A stretch of 64,000 bases of DNA from Eledone cirrhosa (lineage: Eukaryota). The DNA is taken from positions 8,680,001 through 8,744,000 of the forward strand of contig OZ024761.1 in NCBI GenBank assembly GCA_964016885.1. Direction: 5' to 3'. Positions 1 through 53,822 of the stretch are shown here, piece by piece (positions within the stretch are counted from its first letter, which is position 1; every line of letters starts with the position of its first letter). The notes under the pieces were generated by a model. The model did no database searches. It saw only the letters and a program-made list of their open reading frames with translations, and was not told the DNA's origin. Position numbers and translations under genes: made by a program.

Positions 1-1750
1 CGCTGCTGATCCTGGACTCGCAAATAGCCATTACATCCATTCTATGCGACCTGAGATCGTTTAAAAGTTTGCCTTGTTTCCAAGACAGTCCCAGGCCGCG
101 TACATTCAGACACCCAACTCTTATATCAGCCATGTTGGTTAAAAGAGGAAGGACCTACCTGTTCGGCTCCTGAGGAGCAGGTTGCACAATATTCATGGGC
201 GTATTGGAGGGGTTGTTTGGTGGGGTGTTGTTCTGTGGCGGAGTGGGGGTGTTTGGTGAGGTGTGGGTGGGGAAACGTTTCAAGAGGACGCGGTTATAGG
301 GTCGAGTACATGTTTTCCCCACGTCCTCAGGAAAGCTCTCTCTTAGTTTTGCATAGGTGTCCATTGGGAGTCTTATCATTTTTAAATGCGGTTTGTTGGC
401 CGCGCTTGCAAAGAATTGCCCTTCAGTTTCCACCGAAGGGTCTTTGTGTATTGTGTTATTTAAGGGGCCGTGTCTTGTGTTATTTTTCCGTGTTGTTTTT
501 GTTGTTGTTGTGGTGGTGGTGGCGGTGGTGGTGTGTGGGGTGTAGGCAAAAGAGCCTTTTTTTTTGTCAATTGAGGACAGGCAGCCCTTAGATGACCCCT
601 GCTTGAACAGTAGTAACATATGGGCCTCCTACCCTCGGCTGAAATGTATATAAATGTTTCTCCATCGAGGGACACCCTCTGTGGTATTCTAGCTATTCGT
701 TCTGGTCTCATTTGGACCAGAACCTCCACGCTCAAACTGCCAAAAACGTCTGTGGTGACTTCTCCTACTGAGAGGATTCCGTCCTCGTCTTCTAAAAATC
801 CTGTTAGTACCCAGGAAATGCATGCATTTGGCCGGATTCCGGAGACCCTTATTTTCTGTGTTCTTTTCCCTAAATATGTGGGGAAAAAATGTGTGTAGCT
901 TGGAAACAATTGGCGCCACAGAGTATTTCCTGGCCGTCAATTGATCCTTCATTAGCACCGTTATATTCCCATAGAGTGGCCCTTTTTGTATGAACGATAT
1001 ATCACTCCACACACTTTTTAGGACCAGCTCAATTTCTTTTTGGGATAATTGAGCTGGTTTCCTTGTTATGTTGGAAATTGTTCTGAAAGATATCGTTCTT
1101 AGTGTCGTGTCTCTTTTGATTTCTTGTGGGGAGGTGATTGTGAAGTCTCCTCCTTCTTTGAAAGTTACATACTGTTTTGCTTCCTTCATCTTTTCTCTCA
1201 GAGTTGTAATGTCCAGTTGCTTGCAGGTCTGTGTTTACCAGACCGCCTGTGCAAAGGAGGGACCAGTAGTGGGTTCGCTTTGTTTGGTGTTATCGTTATT
1301 TTTTCCTTGGTTGGTGTTGTGACTATTGCTGTTATTGTCGTTGTTGTTTTTGTCTGCGTTTATGTGACTTTCTGGGTTTTCAGCCATTTTTACAAATTTT
1401 TCTTTTAATTCCGTGTTCCATGTTTCTTTTGCAGAAGTGAGGAGGGAAGACTTAGAGCCTTGTGCTTCTAGCTTCTCTGTATCACCTTTCTTAGGGGGCG
1501 TGGCTTTCACGTTAGGATGAGATGTGAAAATTCCGTCCATTTCTATTAGTTTGCCGTAATAAATTTTTAACTGGAAAATTCGCCCCAAAAAGGGGCGAAA
1601 ATAAATAAACTCAAAGTTTGACGACCAAGGCAAGGGGTTAACGTATATTACAGTATAAAAAAATTAATCAAAACTCACTTTTGAGTAAGTAAATCCGACT
1701 CGGTAGCCGAGCTTGTTCACACACGTCAACACACGTCTCTCGTATACGAG
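1..1750 (-). mobile_element. Tx1/L1-clade non-LTR retrotransposon, copy 1 (5' region, disrupted ORF1, start of ORF2; runs off window)
   Basis: Near-identical to 18990-21055. ORF1 split into ORF-track pieces 1235..1633, 689..1189, 460..909, 155..619 by a stop, a 1-bp insertion and a ~331-bp deletion near 460; CCHC knuckle CYYCSSRGHLRAAC; ORF2 ATG at 133. Confidence 0.9.
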
Positions 1751-2773
1751 ATGTTATGTGAGATATTATGTGACGTAAAGCCTTTACTGTGAAAATACAA
1801 TAGTATATATAGAGTAATGTAAATGTTATGTGAGATATTATGTGAGGTAAAGCCTTTACTGTGAAAATACAATAGTATATATAGAGTAATGTAAATGTTA
1901 TGTGAGATGTTATGTGAGGTAAAGCCTTTACCTTGAAAATACAATAGTATATATAGAGTAATGTAAATGTTATGTGAGATATTATGTGACGTAAAGCCTT
2001 TACTGTGAAAATACAATAGTATATATAGAGTAATGTAAATGTTATGTGAGATATTATGTGAGGTAAAGCCTTTACCTTGAAAATACAATAGTATATATAG
2101 AGTAATGTAAATGTTATGTGAGATATTATGTGAGGTAAAGCCTTTACTGTGAAAATACAATAGTATATATAGATTAATGTAAATGTTATGTGAGGTATTA
2201 TGTGAGGTAAAGCCTTTACTGTGAAAATACAATAGTATATATAGAGTAATGTAAATGTTATGTGAGGTATTATGTGAGGTAAAGCCTTTACTGTGAAAAT
2301 ACAATAGTATATATAGAGTAATGTAAATGTTATGTGAGATATTATGTGAGGTAAAGACTTTACTGTGAAAATACAATAGTATATATAGATTAATGTAAAT
2401 GTTATGTGAGATATTATGTGAGGTAAAGCCTTTACTGTGAAAATACAATAGTATATATAGAGTAATGTAAATGTTATGTGAGATATTATGTGAGGTAAAG
2501 CCTTTACTGTGAAAATACAATAGTATATATAGAGTAATGTAAATGTTATGTGAGATATTATGTGAGGTAAAGACTTTACTGTGAAAATACAATAGTATAT
2601 ATAGAGTAATGTAAATGTTATGTGAGATATTATGTGAGGTAAAGCCTTTACCTTGAAAATACAATAGTATATATAGAGTAATGTAAATGTTATGTGAGAT
2701 ATTATGTGAGGTAAAGACTTTACTGTGAAAATACAATAGTATATATAGAGTAATGTAAATGGTAAAGGGTTAA
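1751..2773. repeat. 72-bp tandem array (~14 units) ending in piggyBac-like end (AAAGGG|TTAA)
   Basis: Unit ATGTTATGTGAGATATTATGTGAGGTAAAGCCTTTACTGTGAAAATACAATAGTATATATAGAGTAATGTAA; 24-aa periodicity in ORFs 1668..2783; terminus at 2767-2773. Confidence 0.9.
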
Positions 2774-2789
2774 TCGTCTTCACCTGCTA

Positions 2790-3180
2790 ATTCCTGGGTG
2801 GGTAGAGTCCTCAGACACACTTTTCAGAGGGTCTTCAATTGGTCCGGCTGGATCCTCAACAGTGTCCAGCCAAGCTCATGGATGTTATTCAACCACCTTG
2901 CTCGAAGTCTAACCCTAGGTCTCCAGCCAGTTGGCTTTGCCCATAAAATCTGTCCAGCGGTTCTTTCCTAAGTCATTCTAACCACATGTCTGTAATATCT
3001 AAGGTGTCATCTCTCAATTTGGAGAAGTAGCGTCTCTACCTGGAGTGACTCTCTCATCTCTGAGCTATGCCCTCTATTCAGTAAAGTTACTCCAAAGACC
3101 CTTTTGAAGAACCCCATTTCGGCTACCTGTGTTTGTGATCACATTCTTTCAGTCATTACCCAAGATAAATGACCATGGTA
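2790..3180 (-). mobile_element. Degenerate LINE 3' fragment (RTE-like)
   Basis: Similar to 39090-39450, whose ORF reads LQIERSQLQYYGYVVRM..GKRPRGSPR, a typical LINE ORF C-terminus. Confidence 0.6.
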
Positions 3181-3276
3181 AGAGTGTATAGTATATTATA
3201 GATTCACGGCTTTACTATATCTCATTCTACCCATTTATTACATTTCATTTTTCTTGTTGATAATTATATACTATAT

Positions 3277-3600
3277 AATCATCATCATCATCATCATTTT
3301 ACGTCCGCTTTTCCCTGCTTGCAAGGGTGGGACGGGTCCTATTCAGCACAGCATCTCTCCACTTGTCACGGTCCTTCGTCATCTCCTCGGTGAGTTTCAG
3401 CGATCTGAGGTCTGCTCTCACCACCTCCACCCATGTTTTTCGTGGTCTACCTCTACTGCGTCTTCCCTCCACTGGGATTTCCTGGCACGTCTTCACCCAT
3501 CAGTCATCCTCCATGCGCATCACATGTCCATACCATCTCAGTCTTCTCTCCTCCACACCACAACTTATCCCTCTTATACCCAGTTTCTCTCTCAACATTG
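3277..3600 (-). mobile_element. RTE LINE 3' end fragment with (GAT)n tail
   Basis: ORF 3299..3496 EGRRSRGRPRKTW...DRDKWR matches the C-terminus of the RTE ORF at 10358..13621; tail GGACGTAAAATGATGATG. Confidence 0.75.
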
Positions 3601-3665
3601 ACATTGCACATCCATATAAATTAATTTTCTCTTTCTTAAAATTTATTTTAGTAACTCTCAACTAG

Positions 3666-3826
3666 ACCAAACTGAAGATAATTTGCACAAGAAGAGCTTT
3701 TTGGATTTTTCTAAGGTCCGTTATGGGGGTCGCTTCCACGACTCCTTGGTGAATGATGTGAAGGCTCTCGGAAAAGTCCTTATCTTCTTCCTTGCCCTAA
3801 TACCCTATTGGGTGGTATATTTTCAG
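3666..3826 (+). CDS. SLC15A4: SLC15A4-like (POT/PTR2 peptide-histidine transporter) internal coding exon
   Basis: TAG acceptor at 3663-3665, GT donor at 3827; reads SFLDFSKVRYGGRFHDSLVNDVKALGKVLIFFLALIPYWVVYFQ, the conserved SLC15A4 segment before 'FQMQTT'. Upstream exons lie outside the window. Confidence 0.85.
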
Positions 3827-3864
3827 GTGAGACCTCTTTCTTCTTGTCTTCTCCCCCCACTTAT

Positions 3865-4235
3865 TCTTGGGAGCGTCGTTGGCAGCAGAGTCCTCAGATA
3901 TGGCTTCCAGAAGATCTACCAGTACACTTGGGAGGGTAATAGGGGGCAGAGACATAAGACAGATCTTCCAGAGGACCCCACCAGTATTCTTGGGAGGGAG
4001 AGGGTCATTGGGAGCAGAGTCCTCAGACATGGCTTCCAGAGGATCTACGAGTCCACTTGGCAGGGTCGTTGGAGGAAGAGCCCTAAGACATATCTTCCAG
4101 AGGATCCTACCATTATTCTTGAGAGGGTTGTTGGGGTAGGGTCCTAAGAAAGATCTTCCAGATGATCCCACCAGTAGACTTGGGAAGGTCATTGGGGGAA
4201 GAGTCCGAGGACATGTCTTCCAGAGGACCCTACCA
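3865..4235. repeat. Diverged ~63-bp tandem repeat
   Basis: Recurring GAGTCCTCAGACATGGCTTCCAGAGGATC...CTTGGGAGGGTC motif, about 6 copies. Confidence 0.7.
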
Positions 4236-4567
4236 GCAGCAATCGTCGTCATACAGTTTTCATCTGCCAAATTTCACTCATACGGCGTTGGTGAACCTAA
4301 CCAAAGCTCTAGTAGAAAAAGACACCTGTAAGATTGAAGCTAAAATTCCAAGGTTGAGAGACAAATTATTACTTAACCACAGAGCCGTGCCAAGTGCCGG
4401 ATTGAGGACAAATGAGGCCTTATGCTAGTTAAGTTGAGGTCCCTTACATGGGCCCTGAAGGAGGTAAAACATTTTCTTTTGCAGAAATATGAGCCCAAGG
4501 CCAAGGAAGTTTGGGCTCATGTTTTGTTTATAAGATTTTTGAGAGAATGATAATCATCAATACTTTG

Positions 4568-5052
4568 GTCGTGTTGATGTCACGACAAAAAGCAGCCAGT
4601 CCAAACTGTATTGTGGTCATGTTGGTGACACAACAAAAAGCAGCCAGTCTGAACTGTAATGTGGTCATGTTGATGTCACGACAAAAAGCACCCAGTCCAA
4701 ACTGTATTGTGGTCATGTTGGTGACACAACAAAAAGCAGCCAGTCTGAACTGTAATGTGGTCATGTTGATGTCACGACAAAAAGCACCCAGTCCAAACTG
4801 TATTGTAGTCATGTTAGTGGCACAACAAAAAGCAGCCAGTCTGAACTGTAATGTGGTCATGTTGATGTCACAACAAAAAGCACCCAGTCCAAACTGTATT
4901 GTAGTCATGTTGATGTCACGACAAAAAGCACCCAGTCCAAACTGTATTGTGGTCATGTTGGTGACACGACAAAAAGCAGCCAGTCTGAACTGTAAAGTGG
5001 TTGTGTTAGTGACACGACAAAAAGTGCCCGGCCCACACTGTAAAGTGGTCAT
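4568..5052. repeat. 48-bp minisatellite (96-bp dimer) derived from LINE/SINE 3' tail
   Basis: 16-aa periodic ORFs 4511..5056; same motif as 13770-13860 and, inverted, 54006-57675. Confidence 0.8.
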
Positions 5053-5150
5053 TTAGGTGCCAGTTTTCTTTTTAAATTTGTTTTTGCCATTGTAGATTCT
5101 GACCTTTTTTTGTCTTTTGTTTTCTCCCTCCCCCCACCTTCTGCTTCCAG

Positions 5151-5273
5151 ATGGAAACAACATTTTTACTGCAAGGCCTACACATGAAACTTACTATGCA
5201 CAATGGCAGTGAGAATGTTTTACAGAATAATGAATACAACTGCACAAAAGCATCAGAGGTTAACTACCCCAAG
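5151..5273 (+). CDS. SLC15A4: SLC15A4-like coding exon
   Basis: Polypyrimidine tract + CAG at 5148-5150, AAG|GTGAG donor; 123 nt phase 0-0; METTFLLQGLHMKL matches the SLC15A4 MQTTYVLQSLHL motif. Confidence 0.85.
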
Positions 5274-5424
5274 GTGAGCACCACTTACTTTGTCATTTTG
5301 GTTGGTACGCCCAGTATACTCTGTAAAGTTTGTTGGTGTCATAACAAAATGCATCTCTAATACACCCGGTAATGTGTTAGTTAGTGCTGGGTGCATTTTA
5401 TCCCGGCACCAGCACTAAAAATGT

Positions 5425-5710
5425 GGAGGCAAGTGGCCTAATGGTAAGGGTGTTGGACTTACGATCATAATGTCGTGGGTTCGATTCCTGGGCTGGGTTG
5501 TGTGTTGTGTTCTTGAGCAAAACACTTCATTTCACGTTGCTCCAGTATACTCAGCTGAAAATGGGTACCAGCAATTGCTGGGGGTTTAACCCTGCAATGG
5601 ACTGACGTCCTGTCCAGGAGGAGGTCTTGTACTCTCAGTCGCTTCACGCCCTGAAACCAGGATAAACACTGGTCTAACGAGCCTTCTGGCTTAAGATAGA
5701 CTTTAGACCA
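5425..5710 (+). mobile_element. tRNA-derived SINE
   Basis: A-box TGGCCTAATGG, B-box GGTTCGATTCC, followed by CTTGAGCAAAACACTT central domain. Confidence 0.7.
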
Positions 5711-6599
5711 GCACTAAAAAGGTTTTCATATCCTTGACTAGACTGAAGAGTTCTTTCAAACCTTTTTTTGGCACGGTTTCTATGGCTGGGTGTCCTTCCT
5801 AACACTCACCACTTTACCCACCCTCCTAACACTTTACACTAGAGGTTCTCAAACTTTTTGAGCACCCCCCCCCCCCTCATGGCCATGGAATACCTTCAGC
5901 ATCCCCACCCCTATTTCCAGAGAGACCTGCCTACTTGCAAATTATAATAAATAATAATTATAGTAAATATAGAGAAACATGGCTTAGTGGTTAGAGCATT
6001 GGCCTTGCAATCGAAAGGTTGTGAGTTCAATTCTCAGACCGGGTGATGTGTTGTTTCCTTGAGCAAGACACTTTATTTCACATTGCTCCAGTTTACTCAG
6101 CTGTAGAAATGAGATGATATGGACTGGGGTCCCTATCATTCCACTGCATTTTGTGTATGATTTATTTTTTAGAAAACTGGATGATGGAGCGCGTCTACCT
6201 GAAATGGAAAACAAACCGTTTTGTAAAAAGTGCTATACTTGAGCACGTGCGTAAGCATGTGTGTGTGTCTGTGTGTTATTATACGTTCGTACGAAGCTAA
6301 GAAGAAATGTGTGTGTATATGTAAGTAAAAGAGTGTGTGTGTGTATATGTAAGTAAAAGAGTGTGTGTGCATGTAAGTACGAAGCTATGAGCAAAAGTAT
6401 GTTAATATAAGGGTGTGTATACAGAGCTGTGGAGTGAGCATATATAGTCAGGTCTGTATTAGTCGTAAGAGAAGATGTTAATGATCAAGAGAGAGCGATA
6501 GGAATCTAGGGGTGAATGTACAAGCGTGTGTGATAATGGACGGGGTATTAGAGAAATTGGGGAGGTGAGTTGAGTCCAAGAGGGGAATAGGACCCAAGG

Positions 6600-7120
6600 C
6601 GGTGATTCAGACTTTGTTCAGTCCTGGTACGCGAGGCCTGTGATCCATGATGTAAAAGGACACCCAGGACTGAAACATGTAGGGAAGAATGGCGAGGAGA
6701 ACAGAAATGACGGGCAACAAGAGTATCCGAACCAAGTCTATATTTATGTTCCTCAAATGCTCAGCAAAACGGTCTGCCATATGGCGTCCCGTTTGTCCGA
6801 TGTATAAAGACCCGACCCGCAAAGGGAACACTGGAGAGCATAGACAACGTGGGTGGATGTGCAGCTGAAAGAGAGGTGGATACGGAAAGACTCGTTAGGG
6901 CCTGTAAGAGTGGTGAGGGTGGAAATGAAGGGACAAATGTTGAAGCGGGAACAAGAACAAGGATGAGAGCCGGGTGGAGAAGATGAGAAGGAACTGCGAA
7001 CCAGCAGGTCGCAGAGGTTGTGGGCCCACTTAACAGCAGTAATTGGTGGGTTTGGAAAAAAGCAAGAAGTGACGGGGTCAGAAGAGAGGATGCTGAAGGA
7101 TTCGGAGGATATGTCGCCGG
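6600..7120 (-). mobile_element. Penelope-like element (Neptune-type) GIY-YIG endonuclease remnant
   Basis: Frameshifted ORFs 6753..7160 and 6607..6831: NLCDLLVRS..PGSHPC..FSCTSTHVVYALQCSLCG / LYIGQTGRHMADRFAEHLRNI. Confidence 0.8.
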
Positions 7121-7339
7121 AGTGATGACGGGGTGGTAGGGGAGAGGGAAAGTAACGCATATATATATATATATGGAGAGAGAGAGAATGGAAGTGAGAA
7201 AGAGATATAGAGAAAGAATTAACCCCAGTACTTCACTGGTATGGTACTTTATTTATCGACCTCGAATGGATGAAAGGCAAAGTTGACCTCGGTGGAATTT
7301 GAACTGGGACAGCAGAGAGCTGAAACCAATACTGCCAAG

Positions 7340-8350: not shown

Positions 8351-8660
8351 TAACGACTGGGGTCCCTATCATTCCACTGCAAAGTAGTCGTGGAGGCGCC
8401 GCGGAAAAAAAGCACCCAGCCCTCACTGTAAAGTGGACGTGTAGGCGCCATGGCAAAAAAGCACCCAGCACTCACTGTAAATGAGGTTGGTGTTAGGAGG
8501 GCATCCAGCTGTAGAAATCAAGCCAGAATCAGTTCCCGTCCCACCCTTGCAAGTAGGGAAAAGCGGACGTAAAATGATGATGATGGTGATGATGATCCCC
8601 TTAGTAAAATAAGTTGGATTACATAATTTATCTACTAAATTTCGTGGTTGTTCATGAGAT

Positions 8661-9341: not shown

Positions 9342-9344
9342 GTA

Positions 9345-9853: not shown

Positions 9854-9896
<43 letters not shown>

Positions 9897-9912: not shown

Positions 9913-12900
9913 TTCATGTAACGTAATGTACATATTTTCCTTCATCTCTACCTCCACAATCCTAATTCCTCAATTCCTAATTCTAGCGTATTCATCTCTA
10001 CCTCCACAAACCTCAATTCCTAATTCTAGCGTATTTTCAAAACAATCCATATTTCGTATCAAGTCCAAATAGCCAATCTATCGCTAAAACAATCTACATC
10101 TTTTGTATTTATTAATTGTTAGATACGAAAGTTTTTGGTCGTATTGAACAGAACAAATTTTGTATTTTTGTTAATCGCTTGTTAAATGTGCAAGGACCCC
10201 ATTCAATCATTACCTCCTATCTAGCTACCCAACACCCCTCCCTCCCGCCCCCACGCACCACCACTGCTATTACGTGGACCAATCATAAGCCAGAGCCCCC
10301 ACGCATCACCAGTATTATTACGCGGACCAATCAGAAGCCAGAGGCCTATACTATCGCTTGCCTGGTTGCCTTTCGATATATGATGGATGGATGGACTGCG
10401 GAATCCTGGAGAGTGGAGGAGAGAGAGAAAAATCTGGACGCTCAGCGACAATGCCAAAGATAAAGACAAATTCACCTCTTGGACGAGAATGCGAGCACTC
10501 CTCATTGTTTCGACCGCGGACGGCTAACATAACCCCATCGACCCCCGCCCCCCACCGCCCCCAACCCCCAAACGCAATCCAAAACTTCAGAGTTGGTACC
10601 ATAAATGTAGGCACCCTAAAGGGTCGCGCTAACGAGGTTGTAGAAATGCTTGAACGTAAGGAGGTCGATGTTTGTTGTATTCAAGAGACCAGGTGGAGGG
10701 GTGGGTCTGCTAGGTTCATTGAGGGTAAAAAACGATGTTATAAGCTTTTCTGGGTGGGAAACGACGATGGGCTGGGTGGAGTAGGAATCATGGTAGCAGA
10801 AAAGTGGGCAGATAAGATAATAGACGTAAATAGAGTGAACGACAGAATAATTAAAATACGACTTGTCCTCAATAGAACTACGGTGACAGTAATATCTGCG
10901 TACGCACCCCAATCCGGACTGCCCGGCACTATAAAAGACAGATTCTATGAGACACTGATGCTAACTACCTCCCAAATATCCGACAGTGACTATATAATTA
11001 TTGCAGGTGACCTAAATGGTCACGTTGGACAACATTGTGACGGCTACGACGAAATCCATGGAGGCTATGGGTTTGGTACTAGAAATGAGGAAGGCTCCAG
11101 AATCCTGGAATTCTGTGATGCAAATAACCTAACTATCTGTAACACTAACTTCAAAAAACGTGACAATCACCTGATCACCTATAGATCCGGGGAACACACA
11201 AGCCAGGTAGATTATATCCTTACCAGAAGACGTGACAGAGTGTCTGTTGTAAACACTAAATCCCTCCCCCATGAAGAATGCACCTCCCAACATAGACTGA
11301 TAATTAGCGACCTCATAGTCAGGACGAGACGTACTCGACAGCAGAAGAGGACTATCCTCAGGAGAAAAATATGGAAGCTAAAGGACCCCACAGCCAGGAA
11401 TAAATTTCAAAGCATATTACTTGATGCTTTCGACAGTAAGGAAGAACATTTAGAGTCGGACAATATAGAGGGAGAGTGGGAATTTCTGAAAGCAAACCTG
11501 CTGTTGGCGACAGACGAAGTCTGTGGCTGGAGCAGGCCTGTAGGCAGGAGGAGAGTAACATGGTGGTGGAACAGTAAGGTGGAGGGGTCAATTAAGGCCA
11601 AAAAGCAGGCTTGGAAAGTATGGCGGGATGGGGGAAGTAGAGAAGACTATCAAGTGGCCAGGAGGGAAGCTAGGAGACAAGTGTACTTAGCAAGAAGGGA
11701 AGCTGAGGAAAGAAAGTTCAAGCATGTTCTACAACGCGATGACCAAAAACGTGAGGTGTTCAGGATTGCTAGGCAATGCGTCAAGGAAAACCGTGATATT
11801 GTCGGGGAGAAGTGTGTACTAAACGACGATGGCACACTTGCCATCACCGACGCTGATAAGAAGGTAGCTTGGAAGTGTCACTATGAAAGGCTACTAAATG
11901 AGGAGAATAAATGGGAGAAAGACAGTCTCCCCCATATCGACCCAATAGAGGGACCAGCAGTGTTAGTCGAGGGGAGTATAATAAGTAAGGCAATCAAGGA
12001 TATGAAGACGGGTAAGGCGGCTGGGCCTTCGGAAATAGTTGCTGAGATGCTGAAGGCATCTGGCACGGTGGGACACACCATGGTCACCCGCATAGTTAAC
12101 CAAGTCGTACAGAATGGGGTTGTTCCGAAGGACTGGCATAGCAGCATCATCGTTAACTGTTATAAGGGTAAAGGAGACGCCCTAGATAGGAGTAACTATA
12201 GAGGCATTAAATTAATCGACCAGGTCATGAAGGTCACGGAAAAAGTAATAGCGCAACTAATCAGAGAGAGAATTGACCTAGATGAAATGCAGTTCGGGTT
12301 TGTGTCAGGCAAAAGTACCACAGACGCTCTTTTCATAGTACGACAACTACAGGAGAAGTACCTAGCTAAAGGTAAACCCCTCTACTTAGCTTTTGTCGAC
12401 TTGGAGAAAGCCTTCGACAGAGTCCCCCGCTCCATTATCTGGTGGGCTCTTAGAAAACTAGGCGTTGACGAATGGCTTGTGAGGGCTATACAAGCCATGT
12501 ATAAAGAAACAGTCAGCAAGGTTAGAATTAACAACGAATATAGTGAAGAGTTTAGCGTAAAAGTTGGCGTCCATCAGGGCTCTGTTCTCAGCCCCCTACT
12601 ATTTATTATTGCCCTTCAGGCTATAACAGAGGAGTTCAAGACAGGCTGCCCATGGGAACTCCTATACGCAGACGACCTGACACTCATAGCGGAATCAATG
12701 GCCGAGCTAGAGAAGAAATTCCAAACATGGAAGCACGGCCTAGAGTCAAAAGGACTTAAAATTAACCTGGCTAAGACCAAAGTTCTAGTTTGTAGGAAAG
12801 AAAACAAGGCGGCAGTCCCATCTGGGAAATGGTCGTGCTCGGTGTGTAGGAAAGGCGTAGGTAGAAACTCCATTTTATGTCCTAAATGCAAAGTATGGGT

Positions 12901-14008
12901 GCATAAAAGATGTAGTGGGATCACAGGTAAGCTAACTAAGAACATAGATTTTACATGTGGCCGGTGTTCTGGTGCAATAAGTAGCAGCAAGTGCCCACAA
13001 AATACTAGCTCTTTCAATTGCGCAGAGGGTTCTATAGAAATAGTGGACAGCTTCCGTTACCTGGGCAATAAAATCAGCAGTGGGGGAGGGTGCTCTGAAA
13101 GTACTGTAGCTAGAGTCAGAACTGGTTGGAAAAAGTTCAGAGAGCTTATACCACTATTAGCTGCTAAAGGGTTCTCCCTAAAAATGAAAGGCAGGTTGTA
13201 CGATGCCTGCATACGAACAGCAATGCTGCATGGCAGTGAGACCTGGGCATTGTGTGCAGAGGATATACGCAGACTAGAGAGGAACGAAGCTTGCATGCTC
13301 CGCTGGATGTGTAACAGTAATATACGTGAACGGCAAAGCATAAACGAACTAAGGAAAAAATTAGAGATAAGAGGGATCAGATGTTGTTTACTCGAGAGAA
13401 GGCTACGTTGGTATGGACACGTGATGCGCATGAAAGTCGATAGCTGTATAACAAAGTGCAGGGCAATAAAGATAGACGGTAGTCACGGAATAGGCAGACC
13501 TAGAAAAACCTGGGACGAGCTGATAAACTCCGACATCACACACTTACACCTCTCCAAGACAATGTCACTGGACCGAGACCTTTGGCGGTACTCAGTAACA
13601 GAGAAGACCCGCCTTACCTAAATATATAGTAAAACCTACTCCAGCCAGTAGGCATCTCTAACAAAATACACCCCGTCCCACCACCACCACCCCCACCCCA
13701 TCCACACCACCCCGTTCTATGTAAAGTTATGCTGGTGCCGCGCCATCCAGGCCGAAACAAATGAGATCGTGTAGGTGTCACGACAAAAAAACACACAGTC
13801 CACGCTGTAATGTGGCCGTGTAGGCAACACAGTAAAAACCTCCCAGACCCACACTGTAAATGTGGTTGGTGTTAGGAAGGGCATCCAACTGTAGAAAACC
13901 TGCCAGACAGTCCTATGCGAGCAAGACAATCACTCTTGCCTCAAGTGGGACTACCCCCGTCCAAACCCATGCAAGCGTGGAACACGGACGTTAAACGTTG
14001 ATGATGAT
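9913..14008 (+). mobile_element. Full-length RTE-clade LINE
   Basis: ~480-bp 5' UTR, single long ORF, 3' UTR ending GGACGTTAAACGTTGATGATGAT; inserted in a microsatellite so TSD is ambiguous. Confidence 0.9.
10391..13621 (+). CDS. RTE LINE polyprotein: APE endonuclease, reverse transcriptase, PHD-like zinc finger
   Basis: Uninterrupted ORF (track 10358..13621; first ATG 10391). APE motifs CIQETRW, IAGDLNGH, VDYIL; RT motifs DLEKAFD, GVHQGSVLSP, LYADD; C4HC3 pattern CSVC..CPKCKVWVHKRC..CGRC. Confidence 0.92.
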   Translation: MDCGILESGGEREKSGRSATMPKIKTNSPLGRECEHSSLFRPRTANITPSTPAPHRPQPPNAIQNFRVGTINVGTLKGRANEVVEMLERKEVDVCCIQETRWRGGSARFIEGKKRCYKLFWVGNDDGLGGVGIMVAEKWADKIIDVNRVNDRIIKIRLVLNRTTVTVISAYAPQSGLPGTIKDRFYETLMLTTSQISDSDYIIIAGDLNGHVGQHCDGYDEIHGGYGFGTRNEEGSRILEFCDANNLTICNTNFKKRDNHLITYRSGEHTSQVDYILTRRRDRVSVVNTKSLPHEECTSQHRLIISDLIVRTRRTRQQKRTILRRKIWKLKDPTARNKFQSILLDAFDSKEEHLESDNIEGEWEFLKANLLLATDEVCGWSRPVGRRRVTWWWNSKVEGSIKAKKQAWKVWRDGGSREDYQVARREARRQVYLARREAEERKFKHVLQRDDQKREVFRIARQCVKENRDIVGEKCVLNDDGTLAITDADKKVAWKCHYERLLNEENKWEKDSLPHIDPIEGPAVLVEGSIISKAIKDMKTGKAAGPSEIVAEMLKASGTVGHTMVTRIVNQVVQNGVVPKDWHSSIIVNCYKGKGDALDRSNYRGIKLIDQVMKVTEKVIAQLIRERIDLDEMQFGFVSGKSTTDALFIVRQLQEKYLAKGKPLYLAFVDLEKAFDRVPRSIIWWALRKLGVDEWLVRAIQAMYKETVSKVRINNEYSEEFSVKVGVHQGSVLSPLLFIIALQAITEEFKTGCPWELLYADDLTLIAESMAELEKKFQTWKHGLESKGLKINLAKTKVLVCRKENKAAVPSGKWSCSVCRKGVGRNSILCPKCKVWVHKRCSGITGKLTKNIDFTCGRCSGAISSSKCPQNTSSFNCAEGSIEIVDSFRYLGNKISSGGGCSESTVARVRTGWKKFRELIPLLAAKGFSLKMKGRLYDACIRTAMLHGSETWALCAEDIRRLERNEACMLRWMCNSNIRERQSINELRKKLEIRGIRCCLLERRLRWYGHVMRMKVDSCITKCRAIKIDGSHGIGRPRKTWDELINSDITHLHLSKTMSLDRDLWRYSVTEKTRLT

Positions 14009-14407
14009 ATGTGTGTGTGGGAGTATATATATCTATATGTGTGTGTGTGGGAGTATATATATCTATATATGTGTGTGTGGGAGTATATCTATATATGTGT
14101 GTGTGGGAGTATATATATATGTGTGTGTGTGGGAGTATATATATATATATATATGGGTGTGTGTGGGAGTATATATATATATGTGTGTGTGTGGGAGTAT
14201 ATATATCTATATATGTGTGTGTGGTAGTATATATATATATATGTGTGTGTGGTAGTATATATATATATATATGTGTGTGTGTGGGAGTATATATATATAT
14301 ATGTGTGTGTGTGTGGGAGTATATATATATATGTGTGTGTGTGTGGGAGTATATATATATATATATGTGTGGTAGTATATATATATATATATATGTGTGT
14401 GTGGGAG

Positions 14408-14441
<34 letters not shown>

Positions 14442-14444
14442 GGA

Positions 14445-14499
<55 letters not shown>

Positions 14500-14944
14500 G
14501 GAGTATATATATATATATGTGTGTGTGGTAATATATATATATATGTGTGTGTGGTAGTATATATATATATGTGTGTGTGGGAGTATATATATATATGTGT
14601 GTGTGTGGGAGTATATATATATATATATGTGTGTGTGTGGGAGTATATATATATGTGTGTGTGTGGGAGTATATATATATATGTATGTGTGTGGGAGTAT
14701 ATATATATATGTGTGTGAGAGTACAGTTGTTCCCTGGTATTAGCGGAGGTTATGTTCCTAGAGTACCCGCAAAAAGTGAAAAACTACGAATATTGGACGT
14801 GGTCCATAAAAATGCCTATAAACGTCAAAATATAATAAAAAAGGAGGGCGTCTTATGCGAAGGGGCGTCCAATAGGCCAGCAGATACAGTATATCTAAAG
14901 TATAATAAAGTAAGGAGTGCAAGACTGCATACGGTTTATAATGG

Positions 14945-15102
14945 AGGCACATGGCTTAGTGGTTAGAGCATTGGCCTTGCAATCTAAAGGTTGTGAGTTC
15001 AATTCTCAGACCGGGTGATGTGTTGTTTCCTTGAGCAAGACACTTTATTTCACATTGCTCCAGTTTACTCAGCTGTAGAAATGAGATGATAGGGACTGCA
15101 AA
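14945..15102 (+). mobile_element. 5' part of tRNA-derived SINE (same family as 46235)
   Basis: GGAGGCACATGGCTTAGTGGTTAGAGC head and B-box GAGTTCAATTCTC; another partial copy at ~5978-6148. Confidence 0.8.
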
Positions 15103-15447
15103 GTAAATGTTATGTGAGATATTATGTGAGGTAAAGCCTTTACTGTGAAAATACAATAGTATATATAGAGTAATGTAAATGTTATGTGAGATATTATGTG
15201 AGGTAAAGCCTTTACTGTGAAAATACAATAGTATATATAGAATAATGTAAATGTTATGTGAGATATTATGTGAGGTAAAGCCTTTACTGTGAAAATACAA
15301 TAGTATATATAGAGTAATGTAAATGTTATGTGAGATATTATGTGAGGTAAAGCCTTTACTGTGAAAATACAATAGTATATATAGAGTAATGTAAATGTTA
15401 TGTGAGGTAAAGCCTTTACTGTGAAGATACAATAGTATATATAGAGT
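15103..15447. repeat. 72-bp array, left flank of Tx1 copy 2
   Basis: Same unit as 1751-2773. Confidence 0.9.
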
Positions 15448-15684
15448 GGTTTCTTTACTTGCCACTAGGGCACATAAGGTAGGGACAGATACAAGGGGGG
15501 AAGTTTACATATAATTAACGAGTACAAAAATATAACAATGAAATAACAACAACAAACGAAGTCCTCAATAGGGAGGGGGCATTAACATGGGTCGCACACA
15601 CCCCGGAAAAAATGTGCAACCCTTCTCCTCAGGAGCACAAAGAGTAGGTGCTTCCTTCGTCTCCTCTTTTTCCTCTTCTTTCAC

Positions 15685-18600
15685 CTACAGGCTGATATAG
15701 AGAGAAGACCCATTCACTCTGGCCATTCTCCCTACTTTCACCCACCTTTCATAAAACTTGCTGGGGTAGAGCACCTCTCTCTCCATTCTGATCCTTCTTT
15801 TAAAATGGTATTTGAAAAAGGGGACCAGTTGTTGGCCGGAGAGAAAGGTGTCTGACCTCAGCCTTTTCAGCCTCGTCCACCATACAACTTCTTTAGCCAT
15901 GGCTATCACACAGAGAAAAACCGCCTCTCCTTCGTTTTTGAAAGGGGGAGGCGGTTTGATCGTGACAATGGACTCGGTGGTCAACCGGATTGGTCCCACC
16001 CTCGACAGTAGTCGTTCCACATAGCCCCACAGGTCAGCAATGCCTGGGCAGTGTACGAATGCGTGCGCAACGGTTTCGTCATCATGCACGCATCTCGGAC
16101 AGATCTTATTCAAAGGATCTCTACCCAGGCTCCCATGCCTGTGGAGCTTGTCTCGGACGGGTAGAGCCCCTCGGTAGCACTGCCAAGCCAGGGACTTTTG
16201 GAAGTTGTCCATCGGTCCAGGGCCAAACGTCCTACCGAACAGACTGGCCAGTTCATCTTCCTCCATGCCTAGAGCTTCTCCGAGAGCATCGTCGCACCTG
16301 CTGCGTACCAACCCTCTATAGAATGTCGACGTGGAGTCTCCACTGATTGCCGGGTCCGCTTTCCAGAGGGCCGTGAGCGCCTGGGCACATTCAATGTGCC
16401 AGTCGCCCACTTTTCTCGGTCTTTGCTTGACCCAGGATTGCAGCTCGGTGAGCGAGACGAGTCTGGGAAAGGCTCGCCTCACAAACGGGGCCCACACTGG
16501 TTGACCAGTGAGGAATACCTGGAGGTGCCGTAGCCTTAATGCGTGTTTACGCATCTGTAGCCACGGCATCCCCAGCCCTCCTTTCGAAGGGTGTTGACAG
16601 CAGATGGATCTCCTCACCAAAGGGGTCCGCTTGTTCCAAAGAAATTGGAACAGCGCGCACTCCATTTTGGCGAGTCTTTTCACTGGGCAAGGCACGATGG
16701 TCAAGCGGTAGTAGATGACGGATGCTATATAAGTATTCGCCACCTCCGCTCGACCTTTCAGGGATAGTTTGCACTGGGCCCACTTCTGGGTGAGTGCAAA
16801 CACCCTGGCCGTTACCTCGTTCCAGTTTTTCTCCACCTGGAGGTCTGGTCCGAACCAGACCCCAAGCAGCTTCACCGGGCCCTCCGTCCAGCGTCCGACG
16901 ACGTCGTTGTAGGGCATCGGTTTGCCTCTCCATGTTCCGAGTTGCAAACCGACGGACTTGTCCCGGTTCAGCTTGGCTCCTGTAAACCTTTCATATTCCT
17001 CCAGTAAGGTGCCGATCTCACCGATTTGCGAGGTTTTCGACACCATTACTGTCACGTCATCGGCGTAGGCCGACGCCGCTTTCTGCAATCCCGGTTCCAA
17101 AGGGATGCCCTGCAACCGCTCCAACTTCCGCAGTAGTGGCTCAAGAGCCAGCACATACAGTAGGGAGGAGAGAGGGCATCCCTGTCGGATGGATCGCATG
17201 ATTTAGAACGGCTCCGAGAGGTGGCCGTTCACCTTGACCCTTGAGCAGACATTGCTGCTGTGCATTGCAGCAATCCAACCCCTGAAAACGGGTCCGAAGC
17301 CTGCCGCCGCGAGCACCGCATCCAGGTAACGATGGTCAACCCTATCGAAAGCTTTAGATTGATCCAAGTTGATCAGGGCACCACCAAAGCCGGGTTCATT
17401 CCCTACCCTCTCTATGATGTATCGCATAAGGTGGAGATTGTCGTGAATGGACCTGGACGGGATTGCGCATGTCTGCGCTTCTCCCACCAGGTTTCCAACG
17501 ACAAGTGCCAACCTCTTCGCTAACACCTTGGCCAAAATCTTTAACTCTGTATTTAGCAGAGTTATGGGCCTGAAGTTACTTATGTCATCCCCCTTGTTCT
17601 CATCCTTCCTCACCAGCGTAACTACGCCCTTGGTCACAGAACTGGGAATTCTCCCGTTCTGCTGCCAGTTGCAGTAGACCGCTTCGAGGATATCGGAGAA
17701 CAAGTCCGGCATCGCTACATATAGCTCGTATGGTAGACCATCGAGACCCGGGGATTTGCGTTTGCCGCATTGGCTCAGCGCCGCCCCTATCTCAGCAGCT
17801 GCAATCGTCCTTTCGCAGGACTTCGCCCCCGCGTCCGAGAGGCGCGGCAGACTGTCGAGGTATGGATTGAAATCCATAGTCTCACCCGGCGCGCCGCCCC
17901 TCTCGAACAGTCGTGCAAAGTGCCGCTGAAAGGCCGCACACATCTGCCCAGGTTCAAGGATCACACGCCCATCCTGGTCCTTCAAAGACCGAATCGTGGA
18001 CTTGTTCCCACTTTTTGCCTCTGTCACTCGGGCCCAGCTCACAGCTTTGGCTCCCTCATTACCCAGAGCACGTATTTTACTCCTGACAACGCAGCCTTCA
18101 TGCTTCACCTCAAAGAACGGGTCTAAGGCCATTCTTGATGCCAGCACGCCGGCTACATTGCCACTCCTAATCGCCTCTTCTACTCTATCTACTAATTCCC
18201 TTTCCGTCTTGTTCCTATCCCTTGCTAATTCCTGACTAAAACCTATCGATTCTATTCTAATTGCTCTCTTAAGAGAGCTCCACCACCTGTTGTTGACAAT
18301 TGCCCCTGTCAAACTCTGCTTAACTAACGTGCTAATCCGTTTACTGTAAGCTTTGCTTGTCGGTAAGGACAAGTTCAGCTTCCAGTAACCGGGTCCCTGT
18401 CTATGGGTTCTATCAAGGTTGGCTATGCAGGTCACTAACTTGTGATCCGAATAGTCAACCATGAACATTTTTGGACAGCTAAATGTGTCCCTATCCTTTT
18501 CTCTAACTAGGACCCTATCTAGGTACGACCTAGATGTTCCACTGCGATTGGTCCACGTCCATAGTGGTACAGTCGGAAAATCTAGTCGATATCTATCGGC

Positions 18601-19122
18601 CAGGTCAAATCGGCCAATTAACCTTTTGAGGCTTTTACACCCCCCTCTATTGGCACATGCCCCTACATAGTCCCAACGTGCATCCAGGATACCATTCCAG
18701 TCCCCCACTAAAAGCAAGGAGCAGGACGTTCCCAGAAAAGTTTCCAGACGTTGGAAGTATATTCCGGCCACGCTGCCCAAAAAGGCGTACACAGCTATTA
18801 GTCTAAGAGCTCCACTTTCACTACTGCCGACGTCTAAAACCACCAGTCGACCCTCCGGGTCCAGGTGCACCTTCTGTATGGCGAGGCCCAGGTGTTTTCG
18901 CAGCAGAACGACAACTCCACCCCCACCCCCTGGTTGACAGAGAGATGCGAAGATCTCAAAGTCGTCGAAGAGGGGCGCCAGTTGGTGCTCGCTGCTGATC
19001 CTGGACTCGCAAATAGCCATTACATCCATTCTATGCGACCTGAGATCGTTTAAAAGTTTGCCTTGTTTCCAAGACAGTCCCAGGCCGCGTACATTCAGAC
19101 ACCCAACTCTTATATCAGCCAT
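15685..19122 (-). pseudogene. Tx1 ORF2 (APE-RT-CCHC) with one in-frame stop at 17203-17205
   Basis: ORFs 17203..19122 and 15685..17199 are in the same frame (EPF*IMRSIRQGCPLS); GDWNG, YLDRV, SDH, DQSKAFD, YADD, CPRC..ETVAHAFVHC. Confidence 0.9.
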
Positions 19123-19143
19123 GCTGGTTAAAAGAGGAAGGAC

Positions 19144-20859
19144 CTACCTGTTCGGCCCCTGAGGAGCAGGTTGCACAATATCCATGGGCGTATTGGAGGG
19201 GTTGTTTGGTGGGGTGTTGTTCTGTGGTAGAGTGGGGGTGTTTGGTGAGGTGTGGGTGGGGAAACGTTTCAAGAGGACGCGGTTATAGGGTCGAGTACAT
19301 GTTTTCCCCACGTCCTCAGGAAAGTTCTCTCTTAGTTTTGCATAGGTGTCCATTGGGAGTCTTATCATTTTTAAATGCGGTTTGTTGGCCGCGCTTGCAA
19401 AGAATTGCCCTTCAGTTTCCACCGAAGGGTCTTTGTGTATTGTTTTTACGAGTTCTTTGTTATTTGTGTTAATGTATGTATACTGTTTTATTTGTGTTGT
19501 GTTTGTTTGTTGTTCTTGTGTGTGCTTACGTTTTGTTGTATGTGTTATGTTTTGGGGTGGGGCGGATTTTGTTTGTTCTGTTTGTTTTGTTTTTGTTGGT
19601 GGTTGTGTGTTTGTTTCGTTTATGTTCGAGTGGTGCTTTCTTTTTTTCCTTTTTACAGGTTGGAAGGGTTCCCCCTCTTTGTCACTAGGTGCCGTTTCAG
19701 CTGGGTCCTCGTCCGTGCTGTCGGGTAGTGGTGTATTTTGGGGTTTTGTTGTATTTGTGTGTGTTTTGGGAGTTTTTTTGGGTGGGGCCGTGTCTTGTGT
19801 TATTTTTCCGTGTTGTTTTTGTTGTTGTTGTGGTGGTGGTGGCGGTGGTGGTGTGTGGGGTGTAGGCAAAAGAGCCTTTTTTTTTGTCAATTGAGGACAA
19901 GCAGCCCTTAGATGACCCCTGCTTGAACAGTAGTAACATATGGGCCTCCTACCCTCGGCTGAAATGTATATAAATGTTTCTCCATCGAGGGACACCCTCT
20001 GTGGTATTCTAGCTATTCGTTCTGGTCTCATTTGGACCAGAACCTCTACGCTCAAACCGCCGAAAACGTCTGTGGTGACTTCTCCTACTGAGAGGATTCC
20101 GTCCTCGTCTTCTAAAAATCCTGTTAGTACCCAGGAAATGCATGCATTTGGACGGATTCCGGAGACCCTTATTTTCTGCGTTCTTTTCCCTAAATATGTG
20201 GGGAAAAATGTATGTAGCTTGGAAACAATTGGCGCCACAGAGTATTTCCTGGCCGTCAATTGATCCTTCATTAGGACCGTTATATTCCCATAGAGTGGCC
20301 CTTTTTGTATGAACGATATATCACTCCACACATTTTTTAGGACCAGCTCAATCTCTTTTTGGGATAATTGAGTTGGTTTCCTTGTTATGTTGGAAATTGT
20401 TCTGAAAGATATCGTTCTTAGCGTCGTGTCTCTTTTGATTTCTTGTGGGGAGGTGATTGTGAAGTCTCCTCCTTCTTTGAAAGTTACATACTGTTTCGCT
20501 TCCTTCATCTTTTCTCTCAGAGTTGTAATGTCCAGTTGCTTGCAGGTTTGTGTTTTCCGGACCGCCTGTGCAAAGGAGGCACCAGTAGTGGGTTCGCTTT
20601 GTTTGGTGTTATCGTTATTTTTTCCTTGGTTGGTGTTGTGACTATTGCTGTTATTGTCGTTGTTGTTTTTGTCTGCGTTTATGTGACTTTCTGGGTTTTC
20701 AGCCATTTTTACAAATTTTTCTTTTAATTCCGTGTTCCATGTTTCTTTTGCAGAAGTGAGGAGGGAAGACTTAGAGCCTTGTGCTTCTAGCTTCTCTGTA
20801 TCACCTTTCTTAGGGGGCGTGGCTTTCACGTTAGGATGAGATGTGAAAATTCCGTCCAT
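19144..20859 (-). CDS. Tx1 ORF1, gag-like nucleic-acid-binding protein with CCHC knuckle
   Basis: Open frame 19144..20988; first ATG at 20859 (MDGIF); CYYCSSRGHLRAAC and basic KRKKRK motif. Confidence 0.85.
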   Translation of the reverse strand: MDGIFTSHPNVKATPPKKGDTEKLEAQGSKSSLLTSAKETWNTELKEKFVKMAENPESHINADKNNNDNNSNSHNTNQGKNNDNTKQSEPTTGASFAQAVRKTQTCKQLDITTLREKMKEAKQYVTFKEGGDFTITSPQEIKRDTTLRTISFRTISNITRKPTQLSQKEIELVLKNVWSDISFIQKGPLYGNITVLMKDQLTARKYSVAPIVSKLHTFFPTYLGKRTQKIRVSGIRPNACISWVLTGFLEDEDGILSVGEVTTDVFGGLSVEVLVQMRPERIARIPQRVSLDGETFIYISAEGRRPICYYCSSRGHLRAACPQLTKKKALLPTPHTPPPPPPPQQQQKQHGKITQDTAPPKKTPKTHTNTTKPQNTPLPDSTDEDPAETAPSDKEGEPFQPVKRKKRKHHSNINETNTQPPTKTKQTEQTKSAPPQNITHTTKRKHTQEQQTNTTQIKQYTYINTNNKELVKTIHKDPSVETEGQFFASAANKPHLKMIRLPMDTYAKLRENFPEDVGKTCTRPYNRVLLKRFPTHTSPNTPTLPQNNTPPNNPSNTPMDIVQPAPQGPNR

Positions 20860-21055
20860 TTCTATTAGTTTGCCGTAATAAATTTTTAACTGGAAAATTC
20901 GCCCCAAAAAGGGGCGAAAATAAATAAACTCAAAGTTTGACGACCAAGGCAAGGGGTTAACGTATATTACAGTATAAAAATTAATCAAAACTCACTTTTG
21001 AGTAAGTAAATCCGAGCTTGTTCACACACGTCAACACACGTCTCTCGTATACGAG

Positions 21056-22187
21056 ATGTTATGTGAGATATTATGTGAGGTAAAGTCTTTACTCTATATA
21101 TACTATTGTATTTTCATAGTAAAGGCTTTACCTCACATAATATCTCGCATAACATTTACATTACTCTATATATACTATTGTATTTTCACAGTAAAGGCTT
21201 TACCTCACATAATATCTCACATAACATTTACATTACTCTATATATACTATTGTATTTTCACAGTAAAGGCTTTACCTCACATAATATCTCACATAACATT
21301 TACATTACTCTATATATACTATTGTATTTTCACAGTAATGTAAATGTTATGTGAGATATTATGTGAGGTAAAGCCTTTACTGTGAAAATACAATAGTATA
21401 TATAGAGTAATGTAAATGTTATGTGAGATATTATGTGAGGTAAAGCCTTTACTGTGAAAATACAATAGCATATATAGAGTAATGTAAACGTTATGTGAGG
21501 TAAAGCCTTTACTGTGAAAATACAATAGTATATATAGAGTAATGTAAATGTTATGCGAGATATTATGTGAGGTAAAGCCTTTACTGTGAAAATACAATAG
21601 TATATATAGAGTAATGTAAATGTTATGCGAGATATTATGTGAGGTAAAGCCTTTACTGTGAAAATATAATAGTATATATAGATTAATGTAAATGCTATGT
21701 GAGATATTATGTGAGGTAAAGCCTTTACTGTGACAATACAATAGTATATATAGAGTAATGTAAACGTTATGTGAAGTAAAGCTTTTACTGTGAAAATATA
21801 ATAGTATATATAGATTAATGTAAATGTTATGTGAGATATTATGTGAGGTAAAGCCTTTACTGTGAAAATACAATAGTATATATAGAGTAATGTAAATGTT
21901 ATGCGAGATATTATGTGAGGTAAAGCCTTTACTGTGAAAATATAATAGTATATATAGAGTAATGTAAATGTTATGTGAGATATTATTGTGAAGTAAAGCC
22001 TTTACTGTGAAAATACAATAGTATATATATAATAATGTAAATGTTATGTAAGATATTATGTGAGGTAAAGCCTTTACTGTGACAATACAATAGTATATAT
22101 AGAGTAATGTAAACGTTATGTGAAGTAAAGCTTTTACTGTGAAAATATAATAGTATATATAGAGTAATGTAAATGCTAAAGGGTTAA
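21056..22187. repeat. 72-bp array with internal inversion (~21091-21335), ending in AATGCTAAAGGG|TTAA
   Basis: Orientation switches at 21091 and back at ~21336; piggyBac-like end at 22181-22187. Confidence 0.9.
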
Positions 22188-53795: not shown

Positions 53796-53822
53796 GTGGG
53801 TTCTCAACTATATTTTTACTCA

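What the first reader, a model, noticed from the sequence alone, without database searches (positions are those of the whole stretch)
1..22187. Two Tx1-clade LINEs joined to the same base of a 72-bp array that ends in a TTAA|CCC transposon end: a Tx1L/Tx1D-like composite
Seen: both copies end CGTATACGAG|ATGTTATGTGAGATATT (1750/1751 and 21055/21056); copy 2 has the array on both sides; both arrays stop at AAAGGG|TTAA (2773, 22187) and unrelated sequence follows. Known: many Tx1-clade elements are target specific, and Xenopus Tx1L inserts in internal tandem repeats of the TTAA-flanked non-autonomous DNA transposon Tx1D. Inference: either a LINE targeting a piggyBac-like MITE or satellite in this lineage, or a LINE-loaded MITE that hopped locally as cargo.
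Basis: partly seen in the sequence, partly recalled or inferred. Interest (0 to 1): 0.75.

Follow-up and report, generated by a model that had tools for sequence, protein, structure and literature searches.

The report
Retrotransposon targeting piggyBac MITE repeat arrays
A young copy-and-paste jumping gene with about 300 copies sits at one exact base of a 72-letter repeat inside old copies of a small cut-and-paste transposon, and it likely seals each full-length insertion by pairing a roughly 30-letter copy of the repeat carried on its own RNA with the repeat unit just upstream, which would explain why it fills repeat arrays and mostly skips single-unit hosts.

Summary
Observation confirmed. 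The two window copies belong to a family of about 300 L1-group (probably Tx1-clade) LINEs: 279 of 303 exact 3' ends and 290 of about 296 5' ends join one fixed phase of a 72-bp unit. The unit is a tandem duplication inside a ~228-bp TTAA-ended MITE whose ends match an autonomous piggyBac in this genome. Composite hopping is rejected: LINEs are 98.8% alike, their host MITE bodies only 81.7%, as diverged as empty MITEs; truncated copies hit the same base independently. The last ~29 bases before the LINE are nearly invariant (8 of 72 differ, against 605 of 1012 at other unit junctions) and override local array variants, so they likely travel on the LINE RNA. Young copies show no long target duplication, so this head likely pairs with the upstream unit, as R2 does with 28S; only arrays offer that unit. 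An 81%-identical sister family sits in (TATC)n instead. Known parallels: Xenopus Tx1L/Tx1D, crocodilian Tx1-Mar, R2. The scan found this family before on other DNA of this genome (six notes).

The parts
1..1750 (-). LINE copy 1, 5' part (5' UTR, ORF1 with frameshift and 337-bp deletion, start of ORF2); continues to about G000:C22:8676986 left of the window
1751..1779 (-). ~29-nt target-like head of copy 1 (unit positions 36-64; one substitution), likely RNA-borne
1751..2761 (-). 72-bp tandem array, 14 units, 5' side of copy 1
2752..2773 (-). Left terminal inverted repeat of the host MITE plus TTAA (2770-2773)
15103..15447 (-). 72-bp array on the 3' side of copy 2 (about 5 units), cut off by a SINE-like stretch; MITE body not found
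15448..21055 (-). LINE copy 2, full length, 5608 bp, no poly(A) tail; 3' end joined at the fixed target base
15685..19122 (-). ORF2: APE endonuclease (PF03372), RT (PF00078), zf-RVT (PF13966); one in-frame stop at 17203-17205 in this copy
19144..20845 (-). ORF1, open; weak CCHC zinc knuckle (E 0.007 in sister copy L118, below cut-off)
21056..21084 (-). ~29-nt target-like head of copy 2, identical to the reference unit
21089..21334 (+). Inverted block of ~3.5 units inside the 5' array, breaking at the unit's GTAAAG.CTTTAC palindrome next to the head
21335..22175 (-). Rest of the 5' array of copy 2 (12 units, 72- and 60-bp variants)
22166..22187 (-). Left terminal inverted repeat of the host MITE plus TTAA (22184-22187)

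Best explanation
A young L1-group LINE family (about 300 copies) sits at one fixed base of the 72-bp unit of an old piggyBac-type MITE, entered each host copy separately, and likely seals full-length insertions by pairing a ~30-nt target copy at the front of its RNA with the unit just upstream. Steps. Shown: fixed 3' and 5' junctions; old hosts, young LINEs; short, variable duplications in truncated copies; an invariant ~29-nt head that overrides local variants; no long duplication in young copies. Inferred: (1) the APE endonuclease nicks the bottom strand at TTACATT^ACTCTAT and primes reverse transcription (TPRT); (2) the RNA starts ~30-35 nt inside the upstream unit, so the finished cDNA ends in target sequence; (3) this end anneals to the homologous part of the preceding unit and primes the second strand, replacing it and dropping the 7 bp TTACATT, as proposed for R2; (4) a single-unit MITE has the TIR, not a unit, upstream of the nick, so full-length insertion succeeds mostly in arrays; incomplete cDNAs join by chance with 1-16 bp duplications; (5) each insertion leaves an intact target at its 3' side, so copies stack head to tail.
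For: 3' ends: 279 of 303 exact matches continue ACTCTAT; of 17 non-matching places among the first 100 listed that were looked at, 13 are an ~81%-identical sister family followed by (TATC)n, 3 are this family in a mutated unit, 1 is not a LINE. 5' ends: 296 matches, 290 with the array-side 10 nt added (patterns differ by 2 nt at the far end). In 80 fetched loci, 72 are full length, all at the same 5' base (one with a 1-nt change next to it). Host bodies (54 of 80 had one within 2 kb) 81.7% pairwise, free monomers 83.0%, LINE 3' 1.2 kb 98.8%. Eight other/truncated copies all have the exact 3' junction; target bases repeated at the 5' side 1, 2, 2, 6, 9, 10, 16, 45; L132 lies in a diverged single-unit MITE. 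Head: 29 nt before the element differ from the reference unit in 8 of 72, against 605 of 1012 other junctions; common local variants are carried by the abutting unit in 30 of 42 cases at positions 0-29, 3 of 13 at 30-35, 0 of 29 at 36-64, while control units carry about half throughout; at 5 loci where 80-100% of the other units share a variant there, the head is still reference; in truncated copies the upstream unit differs in 5 of 6 (L158 set aside by eye as having no unit), so it is not selection of perfect sites. No long duplication: in the 10 youngest scorable copies all 12 derived alleles of the 3'-abutting unit are missing from the 5'-abutting unit; over 55 loci the 5' unit shares derived alleles only with its upstream neighbour 16 times, only with the 3' unit 4 times. 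Array bias: 58 of 70 sampled MITE left ends have no array, but only 1 of 72 full-length LINEs (L123) is in a clear single-unit host. R2 precedent incl. a uniform 7-bp deletion: PMC3774820, Discussion part 1.
Against: No RNA data: no RNA holder was listed (see Tried and rejected), so the RNA start is inferred. No ribozyme was found at the 5' end, so how the RNA gains the head is open. L123 shows a full-length copy with ~35-40 bp duplicated in a single-unit host, so pairing downstream (or a 2-unit array) can also occur. A weak correlation of host-body and LINE distances exists (Mantel rho 0.20, p 0.04, n 51). Array bias is partly confounded with region: arrays and LINEs are both concentrated near chromosome ends and arrays offer more sites per host. 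Counts are exact-pattern counts, so diverged ends are missed; 80 loci are the non-cluster part of the first 100 listed (contigs C1-C18), not a random draw.
Confidence: 0.75

Rival explanations
1. Composite transposition: one LINE-loaded MITE was spread by piggyBac transposase as cargo (Tx1C-like as first proposed).
For: Identical junctions, 72 of 80 full length, unrelated flanks beyond TTAA; an autonomous piggyBac with matching ends exists; weak Mantel signal.
Against: Host bodies 81.7% alike versus LINEs 98.8%; only 1 of 1431 host pairs above 95%; near-identical LINEs (L118, L161, L162, L139) sit in different array haplotypes; independent truncated insertions at the same base.
Confidence: 0.03
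2. Targeted insertion is right, but the invariant head comes from endonuclease choice of perfect upstream sites or from gene conversion among LINE copies spilling into the flank, with a plain 7-bp deletion and no RNA-borne target copy.
For: No RNA evidence for the head; many site-specific elements read upstream DNA (established for R2; recalled).
Against: Head is reference even where nearly all local units differ; truncated copies use non-reference upstream units in 5 of 6; the 3'-abutting unit is not homogenised; left and right arrays of one locus stay as alike as units within an array (2.86 vs 2.6-2.7 differences; 3.83 across loci).
Confidence: 0.12
3. Targeted insertion with a long (40-65 bp) target-site duplication: the head pairs with the unit downstream of the nick.
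For: L123 (five private variants duplicated), L099, L143, and the 45-base repeat in L172.
Against: 12 of 12 derived alleles of the 3' unit absent from the 5' unit in the 10 youngest copies; no excess similarity of the two abutting units over other neighbours.
Confidence: 0.08
4. The two window copies are one segmental duplication or an assembly artefact.
For: Same strand, 19 kb apart; some other loci do share flanks (L019, L021-L023, L025).
Against: 2-2.5% divergence, private deletions, different TIR variants, unrelated flanks; ~300 copies on many chromosomes.
Confidence: 0.01

Closest known systems
Xenopus laevis Tx1L in Tx1D
   Same: APE-type Tx1 LINE inserted specifically into a non-autonomous piggyBac family (PMC4494074, PMC1950540, PMC6719617: passages); insertion within internal tandem repeats (recalled).
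   Different: Invertebrate host, likely independent origin (closest sister here targets (TATC)n); host is a ~228-bp MITE; no fixed long duplication found, whereas a 23-bp duplication is recalled for Tx1L. The primary papers (PMC85248, PMC362770) were not held, so their junction data were not seen.
Crocodilian Tx1-Mar in Mariner-N4_AMi, Tx1-9_AMi in Harbinger; Kibi/Koshi in microsatellites
   Same: Tx1 families that target old non-autonomous DNA transposons, with relatives in microsatellites (PMC4494074 section 15 and passages).
   Different: Described as preferences without arrays in the passages read; here one base in a tandem unit, about 90% full length, plus a target-copy head.
R2 elements whose RNA keeps 9-36 nt of upstream 28S sequence
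   Same: Uniform 5' junctions explained by cDNA/upstream-target annealing; inherited junction variants, incl. a uniform 7-bp deletion in springtail R2 (PMC3774820 abstract and Discussion part 1).
   Different: R2 uses a restriction-like endonuclease, an HDV-like ribozyme and an rRNA target; this element has an APE domain, no ribozyme hit in Rfam and another transposon's array as target.

Membership tests
L1 group non-LTR retrotransposon | Two ORFs; ORF2 with N-terminal APE, RT and C-terminal zinc domain; closest to L1 ORF2p | tested here: met
   Pfam PF03372, PF00078, PF13966; best PDB match human L1 ORF2p E 3e-53, R2 1e-23
Tx1 clade | RT phylogeny grouping with reference Tx1 elements | not testable with these tools
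   No named Tx1 reference among homologues or cluster members; tree has no reference Tx1
Tx1 clade | ORF1 with RRM/CCHC zinc knuckle (PMC5203782 passage) | tested here: inconclusive
   zf-CCHC at E 0.007 and 0.003, below Pfam's cut-off; no RRM hit
Tx1 clade | Target-sequence specificity (common, not universal) | tested here: met
   279 of 303 3' ends at one base
Non-autonomous piggyBac (host MITE) | TTAA at both ends and CCC...GGG termini with inverted repeats | tested here: met
   Monomers of 197-231 bp; TTAA at the right end in 43 of 54 LINE-bearing hosts
Non-autonomous piggyBac (host MITE) | Ends shared with a transposase-coding piggyBac in the same genome | tested here: met
   ~2.57-kb elements with 561-aa PF13843 ORF match 21 of the MITE's first 22 nt and 68-78% over 70-154 bp of its right end
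Tx1C-like mobile composite | LINE and host move together, so both are equally alike across loci | tested here: not met
   Host 81.7% vs LINE 98.8%
R2-type uniform 5' joining | RNA 5' end includes upstream target sequence | tested here: inconclusive
   Strong genomic footprint; RNA not observed
R2-type uniform 5' joining | HDV-like ribozyme sets the RNA 5' end | tested here: inconclusive
   No ribozyme family near gathering score in 20600-21400; Rfam may miss diverged ones; 5' region folds better than shuffles, z -3.0

The most novel reading that the evidence does not exclude
The LINE depends on, and helps make, its own landing pads: it switched from a (TATC)n microsatellite to a MITE's tandem unit, captured a piece of that unit as its RNA head so that only arrays accept full-length copies, and its machinery also spreads or homogenises the units among thousands of old MITE copies. 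This would explain why units are 6% apart across loci while the same stretch of single-unit MITEs is 14% apart and host bodies 18%, and cases such as L104 and L093, where reference-like units lie 5' of a LINE whose 3' unit is old and diverged.
Probability: 0.2. Interest if true: 0.8.

Novelty: new variant of a known kind. Interest (0 to 1): 0.52.

Why it matters
It gives an invertebrate, likely independent parallel to Tx1L/Tx1D with enough young copies to settle by population data the old question 'targeted insertion or mobile composite' (here: targeted). It also gives a genomic footprint for how an APE-type LINE can complete integration precisely, the least understood step of retrotransposition, by an R2-like annealing trick. 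A sister endonuclease 72% identical with a different target makes the basis of specificity directly testable. 18 of 72 full-length copies keep both ORFs open and two are identical over all compared sites, so the family is probably active. Each ingredient has a precedent, which caps the surprise.

Tried and rejected
No RNA holder listed for window 1000-2000: no evidence either way on expression. Rfam scan of the 5' end: only sub-threshold miRNA-like hits from the inversion hairpins. Long target-site duplication in arrays: tested and not found. Whole upstream unit inherited with the LINE: Mantel of LINE distance vs unit positions 0-39 not significant (rho 0.13, p 0.17). Direction of the target switch: the quick tree shows the MITE-targeting and TATC-targeting families as sister clades, not nested, so direction is not shown; the careful tree did not finish. 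Names for homologues: none informative. The Fisher test printed used wrong hard-coded counts and is replaced (10 of 30 vs 2 of 40, p 0.003); the truncated-copy lines were mis-anchored and are replaced; the loose left/right classification is not used. A DPE-like AGAC motif 12-13 nt into the head of three sister families was considered as a promoter that would start RNA in the target; spacing does not fit exactly and it stays a lead (motif recalled). Literature: searches gave no report of a cephalopod Tx1 element targeting a MITE; in PMC13282606 (passages) L1-Tx1 and piggyBac appear only in a table and 'target' has 0 hits in the main text; its supplements and Repbase/Dfam were not seen and may hold this family.

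Full report
What is in the window. Two copies of one LINE lie on the minus strand. Copy 2 (15448-21055, 5608 bp) has an open ORF1 and an ORF2 with APE endonuclease, RT and zf-RVT domains, broken by one stop. Copy 1 runs from 1750 to about 3 kb left of the window and has two internal deletions. Both 5' ends join the same base of a 72-bp unit, both 3' ends join the same other base, and both 5' arrays end in an inverted-repeat end plus TTAA (2773, 22187) with unrelated sequence beyond. Between the two joints 7 bp of the unit are unaccounted for (a 7-bp loss or a 65-bp duplication; in an array these look alike). The genome is 3.0 Gb; it is likely an octopod's, which I infer from recalled repeat motifs and earlier notes, not from a call.

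A genome-wide family. Exact patterns give 303 LINE 3' ends, 279 followed by the same 7 target bases, and 296 5' ends, 290 with the same 10 array bases in front. Of the 17 non-matching 3' places among the first 100 listed that I read, 13 belong to a sister family about 81% identical that is followed by (TATC)n, 3 are this family in a mutated unit and 1 is not a LINE. Of 80 loci fetched at 10 kb (the non-cluster part of the first 100 listed), 72 are full length with the same 5' joint; 18 of the 72 have both ORFs open; nearest-neighbour distances go down to 0.

The host. The array lies inside a MITE of about 228 bp with TTAA-CCC...GGG-TTAA ends; the unit is a tandem copy of the stretch just inside its left end. 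There are 10,191 exact left ends and 27,009 exact unit junctions. Elements of ~2.57 kb coding a 561-aa piggyBac transposase share 21 of the MITE's first 22 bases and part of its right end, so the host is a non-autonomous piggyBac. Most hosts are single-unit and LINE-free: arrays in 10 of 30 left ends from C1 0-31 Mb (3 with a LINE) and 2 of 40 from 31-53 Mb (none with a LINE).

Targeting, not cargo. Host bodies next to LINEs (54 of 80 found) are 81.7% alike, no more than free monomers (83.0%), while the LINE 3' 1.2 kb is 98.8% alike. Left and right arrays of one locus resemble each other as much as units within an array and more than arrays of other loci. Truncated copies have the exact 3' joint and 1-16 repeated target bases at the 5' side (one case 45), the mark of independent target-primed events; L132 sits in a diverged single-unit MITE. 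Against: a weak correlation of host and LINE distances (rho 0.20, p 0.04), and some loci are later duplicates with shared flanks.

Why the 5' joint is uniform. The 29 bases in front of the element differ from the reference unit in 8 of 72 full-length copies but at 605 of 1012 other junctions of the same arrays. Variants common in the local array are carried by the abutting unit in 30 of 42 cases at unit positions 0-29, 3 of 13 at 30-35 and 0 of 29 at 36-64; control units carry about half throughout (first seen). At five loci where 80-100% of the other units share a change there, including two arrays of 60-bp units, the abutting unit is still reference. In truncated copies the corresponding upstream stretch differs in 5 of 6 (L158 set aside), so the endonuclease does not need a perfect upstream unit. 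The simplest reading is that the element's real front end includes ~30 nt of target, carried on the RNA (inferred).

Where the head pairs. If it paired downstream, the two abutting units would be duplicates. In the 10 youngest scorable copies all 12 derived alleles of the 3' unit are absent from the 5' unit, and over 55 loci the 5' unit shares derived alleles only with its upstream neighbour 16 times against 4 with the 3' unit. So the 5' unit is the old upstream unit with its last ~30 bases replaced and 7 bp dropped. This needs a unit upstream of the nick, which single-unit MITEs lack, and fits that only 1 of 72 full-length copies (L123) is in a clear single-unit host although 58 of 70 sampled hosts have no array. 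L123 itself shows a ~35-40 bp duplication, so downstream pairing may occur now and then. The array bias is partly confounded by region.

Comparison with what is known. Xenopus Tx1L targets the non-autonomous piggyBac Tx1D, and crocodilian Tx1 families target Mariner and Harbinger elements or microsatellites (PMC4494074: passages and section 15; PMC1950540 and PMC6719617: passages). The two primary Xenopus papers were not held; their details are recalled only. Uniform 5' joints through cDNA/upstream-target pairing, with an inherited 7-bp deletion in one lineage, are described for R2 (PMC3774820: abstract and first part of the Discussion). The element is L1-group; Tx1-clade membership is likely from ORF1 and targeting but was not tested against references. 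No ribozyme was found. Eight literature searches showed no report of this system in cephalopods; repeat databases and supplements were not seen.

Sister family and open points. The (TATC)n family is a sister clade in the quick tree with a 72% identical endonuclease domain; the two targets share TCTAT next to the joint. A switch from microsatellite to MITE is plausible but its direction is not shown. Unexplained: array units are more alike across loci (6%) than the same stretch of monomers (14%), although half of the variants of the last, body-side unit recur in the locus's own inner units (57 of 116), so arrays mostly grow locally but may also be homogenised or seeded from outside.

Earlier notes. 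I consulted them, after searches had given targeting, the head and the TATC sister. Five notes on other DNA of this genome agree, one (most copies elsewhere) is contradicted. They are not independent support.

Verdict. Real, well supported, a new variant of a known kind: a Tx1L/Tx1D-like targeting system with an R2-like 5' joining footprint. Interest 0.52.

Noticed in passing
G000:C1:4.22-4.26 Mb (L064-L069); C10:40.72-40.75 Mb (L252); C10:41.38-41.43 Mb (L247): Head-to-tail stacks of up to six copies of this LINE, separated by 1-20 units, sometimes by exactly 65 bp.
   Followed up: partly
L233-L248: Sister L1/Tx1-like families (81% identical) in (TATC)n microsatellites, often clustered; their first bases can fold back on the upstream TCTATC.
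   Followed up: partly
window 20895-20915 and the 5' UTRs in L246, L234: A G/C-rich hairpin in the 5' UTR is kept in three families with changes on both sides; an AGAC motif lies 12-13 nt from the 5' joint in all three.
   Followed up: no
window 21089-21334; L134 3' array: Inversions/fold-backs inside arrays break at the unit's 13-bp imperfect palindrome (positions 28-40), which is also where the LINE head begins.
   Followed up: partly
L258-L266, L268, L269, L273: A young autonomous piggyBac family (~2.57 kb, 561-aa transposase open in several copies) shares its ends with the MITE.
   Followed up: partly
C1: LINE copies and arrays cluster in the terminal ~30 Mb of the large chromosomes; no exact LINE 5' end on C1 between 31 and 423 Mb, though single-unit MITEs are dense there.
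   Followed up: partly
L019, L021-L023 (C20), L025 (C16): Five LINE-bearing loci share the same flank beyond the TIR, so a larger segment was duplicated after insertion.
   Followed up: no
window 10289-13621 (+): Open 1110-aa ORF of another LINE (APE, RT, PHD finger; RTE-like by recall); the same family interrupts the array in L032.
   Followed up: no
window 23681-29783; 54025-57677; 37044-38012; 62966-64000: Long satellites of 22, 48, 41 and 45 bp; the 45- and 48-bp units resemble pieces of dispersed repeats in the window.
   Followed up: no
window 42084-42941 (+); 52682-53977 (+): A 285-aa frame that looks like a Tc1/mariner transposase (recalled; no Pfam hit at 1e-3) and an exon of a WD40 protein gene.
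   Followed up: no
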